From the human T2T-CHM13v2.0 reference genome, Homo sapiens, in the NCBI GenBank assembly GCA_009914755.4, contig CP086569.2:33024001-33088000 (forward strand): a stretch of DNA of 64,000 bases, in the 5' to 3' direction. Of this stretch, positions 868 through 1,162 are shown piece by piece. A program made the position numbers and the translations under genes. The notes beneath the pieces are model-generated. The model had not been told where the DNA came from, did not search any database, and worked only from the letters and a program-made list of their open reading frames with translations. Position 1 is the first letter of the stretch; each line of letters opens with the position of its first letter.

Positions 868-1162
868 TTTTTTTTTAGACAGAGTCTTGTCGTGTTGCAC
901 AGGGTGGAGTACAATGGCGCCATCTTTGCTCACTGCAACATCTGCCTCACGGGTCTAAGCGATCGTCCTCCCTCAGCCTCCCAGGTAGCTGGGACTACAC
1001 CACACTGGGAGTACACCAGCTGCCACCATGCCTAGCTAATTTTTTGGATTTTTAGTAGTGACAGCGTTTCACTGTATTGGCCAGGATGGTCTTGATCTCT
1101 TCACCTTGTGATCCCCTTGCCTCGGCCTCCAAATTTGCTGGGATTACAGGCCTGAGCCAAGA
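868..1162 (-). mobile_element. Alu SINE (old, CpG-decayed; 5'-terminal about 12 bp missing) embedded in unit 1
   Basis: The + strand reads ttttttttt agacagagtcttgtc...cagggtggagtacaatggcgc...ctcactgcaac...cctcagcctcccaggtagctggga...ctagctaattttttggatttttagtagtgacag...ttggccaggatggtct...cctcggcctccaaatttgctgggattacaggcctgagcca. This is the reverse complement of the Alu consensus along its full length. Confidence 0.93.

What the first reader, a model, noticed from the sequence alone, without database searches (positions are those of the whole stretch)
868..1162. Amplification post-dates the Alu insertion; every copy shares the same truncated, CpG-decayed Alu and the same junctions
Every unit carries the same minus-strand Alu with a 9-T tail, the same loss of the Alu 5' terminus and identical flanks on both sides. 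Transitions at consensus CpG sites are shared by all copies. Examples are gacggagtc becoming gacagagtc, gagacgggg becoming tgacagcg, and the mutated B-box reading gtcttgatc. The Alu was therefore already old and pol III-dead when the unit began to amplify, or the decayed copy has since been homogenised across the array. This gives a relative clock. The array is younger than the Alu insertion, which occurred within primate history. The within-core identity of about 99% or more implies recent or ongoing unequal crossing-over or gene conversion.
Basis: partly seen in the sequence, partly recalled or inferred. Interest (0 to 1): 0.55.

Follow-up and report, generated by a model that had tools for sequence, protein, structure and literature searches.

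The report
Known human DYZ2/HSat1B satellite, Alu subunit
The window is a stretch of the well-known human satellite DYZ2 (HSat1B, most abundant on the Y chromosome long arm), whose 2.4-kb repeat unit has been known since 1984 to carry one truncated, decayed Alu per copy, so the finding is correct in substance but ordinary.

Summary
The whole 64-kb window is one tandem array with 26 Alu-bearing units and a modal unit of 2,420 bp. Each unit has a 568-bp GC-richer part, about 1.55 kb of 86% A+T sequence, and a minus-strand Alu that starts at consensus position 13.

This is human DYZ2/HSat1B, the classical satellite I "2.47-kb male-specific repeat containing one Alu". Four checks agree:
- A published Y-specific 40-nt probe target spans the Alu-truncation junction and matches all 26 copies (18 exactly).
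- Unit length, the ACATACG junction motif, 24% GC and 1 CpG per 145 bp all match the published DYZ2 consensus description.
- The Alu is 18.7% diverged from AluY; the literature says 20%.
- Seventeen short "bacterial" contigs, the known HSat1B contamination, match the unit at 94-99.5%.

- One copy lost its tail and the adjacent 108 bp of the Alu body through a 246-bp deletion.
- One copy lacks a 16-bp internal duplication.
- Four of the 23 consensus CpGs still vary among copies.
- The string "gacagagtc" occurs in only 6 copies.

Variants shared by adjacent units point to local unequal exchange. Already known; low interest.

The parts
1..64000 (.). Tandem array of DYZ2/HSat1B units: 26 Alu-bearing copies plus partial units at both window ends. 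The modal unit is 2,420 bp. Overall GC is 24.05% and there is 1 CpG per 145 bp.
868..1159 (-). Alu copy 1, the finding itself. The T9 tail is at 868-876 and the Alu body at 877-1159. The Alu begins at consensus position 13, so the 12 nt of the 5' end are missing.
1135..1174 (+). 40-nt junction between the truncated Alu 5' end and the HSATI part. It is identical to the target of the published Y-chromosome padlock probe, which was designed from Frommer 1984. The junction recurs in all 26 units, 18 exact and 8 with one mismatch.
27756..28323 (.). GC-richer ('HSATI') part of a representative core unit (u12). It is 568 bp at 39% GC and ends in the ACATACG motif at unit offset 562-568.
   Evidence: published description
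28324..29877 (.). AT-rich part of core unit u12. It is 1,554 bp at 14% GC and is internally repetitive, with many imperfect direct and inverted repeats.
29878..30169 (-). Alu subunit of core unit u12 (292 bp including the T9 tail), about 51% GC with 4 CpGs.
49107..49281 (-). Alu copy 21. Only the 5' part remains, about 175 bp. A 246-bp deletion (core unit positions 1994-2239) removed 129 bp of AT-rich flank, the T-tail and the adjacent 108 bp of the Alu body.
5698..5973 (-). Alu copy 3. It lacks the 16-bp internal duplication and sits where the array switches from the u01/u02 haplotype to the core haplotype.
20377..25764 (.). Two perfectly identical unit copies: an exact match at period 2420 over 2,968 bp. 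This marks a very recent one-unit duplication.
10820..20495 (.). Units u05-u08, with lengths 2418/2420/2418/2420. u05 and u07 share 5 private variants. The pattern indicates duplication of a two-unit block.
59103..62806 (.). Unit u25 (3,704 bp). It carries an extra 1,284 bp, because core positions about 535-2064 (the end of the HSATI part plus the AT-rich part) occur twice. The second partial copy starts near 60924.

Best explanation
The window is a piece of the human composite satellite DYZ2 (HSat1B, the classical satellite I 2.47-kb repeat). It most likely comes from the Yq12 heterochromatin.

A single ancestral segment consisted of an AT-rich repeat, one minus-strand Alu lacking its first 12 nt, and about 570 bp of GC-richer sequence. 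That segment was amplified head-to-tail. Because the Alu was part of the founding unit, every copy inherits the same truncation point, the same junction with the GC-richer part, a 16-bp internal duplication and about 45 substitutions.

Since then the array has turned over by local unequal exchange or slippage between misaligned units, in blocks of one or two units, possibly with gene conversion. This keeps the central units about 99% alike while the edge units drift. The same process spreads new mutations, including further CpG decay, through the array. It also leaves structural variants such as deletions and partial-unit duplications.

Shown here: the identity with DYZ2/HSat1B, the single origin of the Alu, the clustering of variants in adjacent units, and ongoing CpG decay.

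Inferred: the exchange mechanism, the chromosomal location, the loss of pol III activity, and how much of the decay preceded the first amplification.
For: Identity with DYZ2/HSat1B:
- The 40-nt target of the published Y-specific padlock probe was taken from Frommer 1984. It spans the Alu/HSATI junction and hits all 26 units, against 0 expected by chance.
- The modal unit is 2,420 bp. ACATACG sits at the HSATI/AT-rich junction. GC is 24.05% and there is 1 CpG per 145 bp.
- The Alu is 18.7% from AluY. Rhie et al. report 20%.
- Seventeen short contigs in unrelated bacterial assemblies match the unit at 94-99.5% over their full length. Rhie et al. describe this HSat1B contamination.

Single origin of the Alu:
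- All 26 copies start at consensus position 13, and 45 substitutions are shared by all 25 full copies. The contaminant contigs show the same states.

Turnover of the array:
- Divergence is about 1% in the core and rises to 2-9% towards the 3' end of the window.
- Shared variants lie in adjacent units: 128 runs against 215.6 +/- 4.3, and 0 of 2000 permutations are as low.
- There is an exact 2,968-bp duplicate run.
- There is a two-unit duplication.
- CpG sites are still segregating.
Against: - No reference human genome or Dfam library was available. The identification rests on a 40-nt published sequence, published descriptors and contaminant contigs, not on a full-length alignment to the DYZ2 consensus.
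- No DYZ1 block lies in the window, and HSat1B also occurs on the acrocentric short arms and chromosome 10. A Y origin is therefore probable but not shown.
- Three right-arm diagnostic positions (196, 199, 218) read AluS-like rather than AluY-like. The published label 'AluY' is therefore not cleanly reproduced.
Confidence: 0.95

Rival explanations
1. The array is HSat1B from an acrocentric short arm (chromosomes 13, 14, 15, 21 or 22) or chromosome 10, or from a non-human ape, rather than from human Yq12.
For: HSat1B is reported on the acrocentric short arms and chromosome 10 in smaller amounts. The window contains no DYZ1/HSat3 block or any other Y-specific landmark.
Against: - The modal unit length of 2,420 bp equals the Y-derived consensus.
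- Core units are 99.0-99.5% identical to most contaminant contigs. Those contigs should mostly derive from the roughly 14 Mb of Y-linked DYZ2.
- The padlock probe for this junction labelled only Yq.
- An array of at least 64 kb with a homogeneous core fits the reported Y array sizes of 11 kb to 2.2 Mb.
Confidence: 0.15
2. Most of the Alu's decay, including the CpG transitions and the B-box mutation, arose after amplification began. Each change was then fixed array-wide by homogenisation, so the Alu was young and possibly active when the unit first duplicated.
For: - Four of 23 CpG sites are still polymorphic. At three of them the decayed allele is near fixation and CG survives in only one or two, mostly peripheral, copies.
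- Variants demonstrably spread to neighbouring units.
- The 12% non-CpG divergence is larger than I would expect for a Y/Sg-type Alu ageing as a single-copy element (the expectation is from my own knowledge).
Against: - The 45 fixed differences are shared even by the most divergent copies sampled: c26, and contigs L014-L016 at 3-5% divergence. If they arose after amplification they still predate all sampled diversity.
- No copy retains a markedly younger-looking Alu.
- One array cannot separate the two histories.
Confidence: 0.35
3. Each unit acquired its Alu by a separate retrotransposition event.
For: None. The only variation in Alu extent is the different 3' end of copy 21.
Against: - The truncation at consensus position 13 and the 5' flank are identical in 26 of 26 copies.
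- The tail junction is identical in 25 of 26 copies.
- There are 45 shared substitutions and a shared 16-bp duplication.
- Copy 21 is explained by a 246-bp deletion that also removes non-Alu flank.
Confidence: 0.01

Closest known systems
DYZ2 / HSat1B, the Dfam 'HSATI' satellite and classical satellite I 2.47-kb male-specific repeat (Frommer, Prosser & Vincent 1984; Rhie et al. 2023; Hallast et al. 2023)
   Same: - The unit length is 2,420 bp.
- The order of parts is AT-rich repeat, then 5'-truncated Alu, then GC-richer HSATI part.
- The ACATACG junction motif, 24% GC and about 1 CpG per 150 bp all match.
- The Alu is about 19-20% from AluY.
- The 40-nt junction sequence is identical to a published Y-specific probe target.
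- The array has a homogeneous middle and divergent periphery.
- Copies occur as contaminants in bacterial assemblies.
   Different: Nothing substantive. The differences seen here are local structural variants: a 246-bp deletion, a 16-bp deletion, a 171-bp insertion and a 1,284-bp partial-unit duplication. These are of the kind already reported as length variants. The chromosomal location was not verified here.
Other primate composite macrosatellites built around a transposable-element fragment, for example the human 5S rDNA unit with its Alu, or the SST1 and other composite repeats of the T2T-CHM13 repeat catalogue (from my own knowledge)
   Same: A unit containing a TE fragment was amplified as a whole, so the TE shows identical truncation and shared mutations in all copies.
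   Different: The sequences, unit sizes and locations are unrelated. No Rfam family reached its gathering score, so there is no 5S rRNA gene here.
Alu SINE family, AluS/AluY lineage
   Same: - It has the dimeric 7SL-derived structure with an A-rich linker and a poly-A tail.
- It is 81% identical to AluY/AluSg/AluSx consensus sequences and less similar to AluJo.
- There is a sub-threshold Rfam hit to mir-1268 on the minus strand. That family is Alu-derived, from my own knowledge.
   Different: - The first 12 nt are missing.
- It carries a 16-bp internal duplication.
- The B-box CpG is mutated.
- No target-site duplication is recognisable.
- The left arm is Y/Sg-like, but three right-arm diagnostic sites are S-like.

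Membership tests
DYZ2 / HSat1B | Tandem unit of about 2.4 kb (published final consensus 2,420 bp) | tested here: met
   15 of 25 spacings are exactly 2,420 bp. The others are 2,415, 2,418, 2,399, 2,172, 2,559 and 3,704 bp. Published value.
DYZ2 / HSat1B | Three-part unit: AT-rich simple repeat (>85% AT), a 5'-truncated Alu, and a GC-richer HSATI part | tested here: met
   The unit has 1,554 bp at 14% GC, a 292-bp Alu starting at consensus position 13, and 568 bp at 39% GC. Published descriptions.
DYZ2 / HSat1B | 7-nt 'ACATACG' at the junction of the HSATI part and the AT-rich part | tested here: met
   It is present at unit offset 562-568 in all 26 units that contain that junction, plus the partial duplicate in u25. 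Published.
DYZ2 / HSat1B | Composition of about 24% GC and about 1 CpG per 150 bp | tested here: met
   GC is 24.05% and there is 1 CpG per 145 bp. Published.
DYZ2 / HSat1B | Sequence identity to published DYZ2 sequence | tested here: met
   The 40-nt target of the Y-chrom padlock probe (PMC2212658, designed from Frommer 1984) matches 18 units exactly and 8 with one mismatch, with 0 expected by chance. A full-length comparison with the Dfam HSATI model or the 2,420-bp consensus was not possible, because neither sequence was available.
DYZ2 / HSat1B | Alu subunit about 20% diverged from AluY | tested here: met
   18.7% substitutions against AluY.
DYZ2 / HSat1B | High-copy human sequence that contaminates microbial assemblies | tested here: met
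   Seventeen contigs of 312-2,497 bp from unrelated bacterial genera carry the junction. They align end to end with the unit at 94-99.5%. The phenomenon is described.
DYZ2 / HSat1B | Located in Yq12, in blocks alternating with DYZ1/HSat3 | not testable with these tools
   No human reference genome was available and the window holds no DYZ1. The rising divergence towards the 3' end suggests an array edge just beyond the window.
DYZ2 / HSat1B | CpG hypermethylation of the arrays | not testable with these tools
   This needs long-read methylation data. It is reported.
Alu SINE | Dimeric 7SL-derived body with an A-rich linker and a 3' poly-A tail | tested here: met
   The element aligns to consensus positions 13-281 with the linker and an A9 tail. 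There is a sub-threshold mir-1268 hit on the minus strand; that family is Alu-derived, from my own knowledge.
Alu SINE | Flanking target-site duplication | tested here: inconclusive
   The best flank match is 7 nt exact or 9 nt with one mismatch. About 75% of random 40-mers from the same unit match as well. The AT-rich context makes the test uninformative.
Alu SINE | Subfamily assignment (J, S or Y) | tested here: inconclusive
   - Non-CpG divergence is 12.1% from AluSg, 12.2% from AluY, 13.3% from AluSx and 18.8% from AluJo, so it is not AluJ.
- The left arm is Y/Sg-like.
- Right-arm positions 196, 199 and 218 are S-like.
- The consensus sequences came from memory.
Alu SINE | Intact internal pol III A and B boxes (a transcription-competent copy) | tested here: not met
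   The B-box reads GATCAAGAC instead of GATCGAGAC in all 26 copies. The 5' 12 nt, including the start site, are missing. Loss of activity itself is inferred, not measured.

The most novel reading that the evidence does not exclude
The Alu subunit has evolved abnormally within the satellite. Its non-CpG divergence from its best-matching subfamily is 12%. Transversions (18) outnumber transitions (13). It also has a mosaic of Y/Sg-like left-arm and S-like right-arm diagnostic sites. Together these could reflect an elevated or unusual mutation process in Yq12 heterochromatin, or a chimeric Alu formed by conversion before amplification. If so, HSat1B would be a usable internal gauge of satellite-specific mutation, because the Alu's starting sequence is known.
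Probability: 0.15. Interest if true: 0.3.

Novelty: already known. Interest (0 to 1): 0.07.

Why it matters
It matters little as a discovery. The one-Alu-per-unit structure of this satellite was published in 1984, and its truncated, roughly 20%-diverged Alu, its unequal-exchange dynamics and its homogeneous-core, divergent-edge pattern were described in the T2T-Y and 43-Y-assembly papers.

The value here is in correct labelling. The window should be annotated as DYZ2/HSat1B and not treated as a new macrosatellite. The Alu also works as a marker with a known starting sequence. It shows that CpG decay and its spread by local duplication are still going on inside the array.

Tried and rejected
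- Rfam at gathering thresholds over the whole window gave no hits. There is therefore no 5S, U2 or other RNA gene that could make this a gene-bearing macrosatellite.
- A permissive Rfam search of one Alu gave only sub-threshold hits to mir-1268 and DLEU2_6. I do not read these as genes.
- The target-site duplication search matched no better than chance. Whether the 5' truncation arose at insertion or by later deletion stays open.
- The original 1984 paper (PMC318713) is not held in the library. I used a later paper's probe that was designed from it.
- I searched for HSat1B/DYZ2 in non-human apes.
- I considered that copy 3, which lacks the 16-bp duplication, might preserve the ancestral state. 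I judged a secondary loss more likely. Its unit differs from its duplication-bearing neighbour u01 at 1 site over the first 2,100 bp and then changes haplotype inside the Alu. The single copy it retains is what slippage between the two 16-bp repeats of a c08/c26-like Alu would leave.
- Independent insertions are rejected (see rivals).

Full report
**What is in the window**

The finding's coordinates hold a minus-strand Alu, with a T9 tail at 868-876 and the body at 877-1159. The Alu is one of 26 copies. The whole 64-kb window is a head-to-tail array whose Alu-to-Alu spacings are 2415, 2399, 2420 (15 times), 2418 (5 times), 2172, 2559 and 3704 bp.

A representative unit (27756-30175) has three parts:
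- a 568-bp part at 39% GC;
- 1,554 bp at 14% GC, internally repetitive in both orientations;
- a 292-bp Alu including its tail.

No Rfam family reaches its gathering score anywhere in the window.

**Check of the observation**

- Every copy begins at Alu consensus position 13 and abuts the same flank, AGATCCATATTTTTTAAATG.
- 25 of 26 share the tail junction.
- 45 positions differ from AluY in all 25 full-length copies.

The word "every" overstates it in several ways.
- Copy 21 (49107-49281) lost its tail, the adjacent 108 bp of the Alu body and 129 bp of AT-rich flank. This is one 246-bp deletion.
- Copy 3 lacks a 16-bp internal duplication that all the others carry.
- Two tails are interrupted.
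- Copy 24 has a 32-bp deletion just upstream of the tail.
- The literal string gacagagtc occurs in only 6 copies, because 18 carry a further G-to-A change next to it.
- Of the 23 consensus CpGs in the retained part, 18 are mutated in all copies, one is intact in all and four are mixed. CG survives at position 48 only in c01/c02, at position 98 only in c26 and at position 142 only in c19. Position 206 is intact in 21 copies and has decayed independently three times.

Whole-unit divergence is 0.4-1.7% among units u03-u19, and u09 and u10 are identical. It rises to 2-3% in u20-u24, 4% in u25 and 9% in u26. By segment, mean core divergence is 0.9% in the HSATI part, 1.3% in the AT-rich part and 1.0% in the Alu.

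**What it is**

The anatomy matches the human satellite DYZ2, now called HSat1B.
[quoted passage not shown] They report a final consensus of 2,420 bp, a 7-nt ACATACG at the HSATI/AT-rich junction, 24% GC and 1 CpG per 150 bp.
[quoted passage not shown] They report most copies over 98% identical and more divergence in peripheral blocks.

I tested these features in the window.
- The modal unit is 2,420 bp.
- ACATACG sits at unit offset 562-568 in every unit.
- GC is 24.05% and there is 1 CpG per 145 bp.

For sequence-level evidence I used the "Y-chrom" padlock probe of Lohmann et al. 2007 (PMC2212658). It was designed from the Frommer sequence and labelled only Yq. Its 40-nt target, TTGCTGGGATTACAGGCCTGAGCCAAGATCCATATTTTTT, is the Alu-truncation junction. 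It matches 18 units exactly and 8 with one mismatch, against zero expected by chance.

A scan of 185,579 prokaryotic species genomes for a 23-mer across the junction returned 17 contigs of 312-2,497 bp from unrelated genera. All align end to end with the core unit at 94-99.5%. This is the HSat1B contamination of bacterial assemblies reported by Rhie et al.. It provides independent human copies that share the same Alu states.

**The Alu itself**

Divergence from the consensus is 50% at CpG positions and 12% elsewhere. AluSg and AluY fit best, AluSx slightly worse, and AluJo clearly worse at 18.8% non-CpG.

The left arm carries Y/Sg-type diagnostic states. It lacks the CT of "CACCTGAGG" and reads GAGATCGAG and CCATCC. 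Right-arm positions 196, 199 and 218 carry S-type states. I leave the subfamily as young S/Y lineage, not J.

A permissive Rfam search hits mir-1268 on the minus strand below threshold. That family is Alu-derived, from my own knowledge. The hit has an enlarged loop that corresponds to the 16-bp duplication.

No target-site duplication stands out from the AT-rich background. The B-box CpG is mutated in all copies and the first 12 nt are missing. Loss of pol III activity is a reasonable inference but was not tested.

**How it works**

The shared junctions and substitutions show one insertion into the founding unit, followed by amplification. Separate insertions are excluded.

The mode of turnover is visible in the window.
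- Variants carried by 2-8 units lie in adjacent units far more often than chance: 128 runs against 215.6 +/- 4.3, and none of 2000 permutations is as low. The dominant patterns are (u01,u02), (u18,u19), (u14,u15), (u09,u10) and (u05,u07).
- An exact match at period 2420 runs for 2,968 bp from 20377.
- Units u05-u08 alternate 2418/2420/2418/2420 bp with u05/u07 paired, which indicates duplication of a two-unit block.
- Unit u25 contains a second partial copy of core positions about 535-2064.

These are the footprints of local unequal exchange or slippage, as the Y papers propose. Gene conversion is not excluded.

The segregating CpG sites show that decay continues and that decayed alleles spread. 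One array cannot tell how much decay preceded the first duplication.

**Comparison and verdict**

This is a member of a family described in 1984 and characterised base by base in 2022-2023. The only untested membership features are chromosomal location and methylation. A Y origin is likely because:
- the unit length equals the Y-derived consensus;
- the core is about 99% identical to most contaminant copies;
- the probe was Y-specific.

HSat1B on the acrocentric short arms or chromosome 10 is not excluded.

The finding is real, correctly reasoned in outline, overstated in detail and already known.

Noticed in passing
window 20377-25764: Two unit copies are perfectly identical: an exact match at period 2420 over 2,968 bp. 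This is the most recent duplication visible in the window. A second long exact run (2,456 bp) starts at 31790.
   Followed up: partly
window 10820-20495: Units u05-u08 alternate 2418/2420/2418/2420 bp, and u05 and u07 share 5 private variants. This suggests a two-unit (4,838-bp) block was duplicated rather than single units.
   Followed up: partly
window 3581-5979 (unit u02, Alu copy 3 at 5698-5973): Unit u02 differs from u01 at only 1 site over its first 2,100 bp, then at 8 sites within the Alu. That Alu also lacks the 16-bp duplication. This looks like a recombination or conversion breakpoint inside or next to the Alu, where the edge haplotype meets the core haplotype.
   Followed up: partly
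window 54124-56682 (unit u23): This 2,559-bp unit has a 171-bp insertion near core position 1052 in the AT-rich part (around 55175). It also has a 32-bp deletion at core positions 2073-2104, just upstream of the Alu tail. The origin of the inserted sequence was not determined.
   Followed up: no
window 59103-64000: Divergence from the core rises to 4% in u25 and 9% in u26 at the 3' end of the window. This suggests an array boundary lies just beyond position 64000, where a DYZ1 block would be expected if this is Yq12.
   Followed up: no
Alu copies, e.g. 868-1159 and 29878-30169: Among the non-CpG differences from AluY, transversions (18) outnumber transitions (13). Non-CpG divergence is 12%, which is high for a Y/Sg-type Alu. 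Part of this may come from the from-memory consensus, subfamily diagnostic sites and the alignment around the 16-bp duplication.
   Followed up: partly
window 1066-1068, and 882-883 in c01/c02 only: New CpGs have been created by mutation inside the decayed Alu. One is the GCG in 'tgacagcg', present in nearly all copies. Another is TCG in 'gtcgtgtt', found only in c01 and c02. Not every CpG in the element is a relic.
   Followed up: no
window 28324-29877 (AT-rich part of a core unit): There are 175 imperfect inverted-repeat pairs of at least 20 nt, with arms up to 112 nt at 70-78% complementarity, as well as 65-68% self-similarity in both orientations. This fits the reported enrichment of inverted and mirror repeats in HSat1B. 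Structure formation was not assessed.
   Followed up: no
loci L001-L017 (e.g. LZSC01000004.1 Mycobacterium sp., CALPCJ010000037.1 Senimuribacter sp., BMRF01000089.1 Actinomadura cremea): Seventeen contigs in GTDB representative bacterial assemblies are human HSat1B contamination. Three are about one unit long (2,392-2,497 bp). L002 has a right Alu arm that does not match the DYZ2 Alu and may be a chimeric assembly.
   Followed up: partly
window 27562-27628 (-), and the equivalent position in every unit: There is a sub-threshold Rfam match to the mir-1268 precursor (33.9 bits against a gathering score of 83). That family is itself an Alu segment, from my own knowledge, so this is a similarity by descent and not a miRNA gene.
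   Followed up: yes
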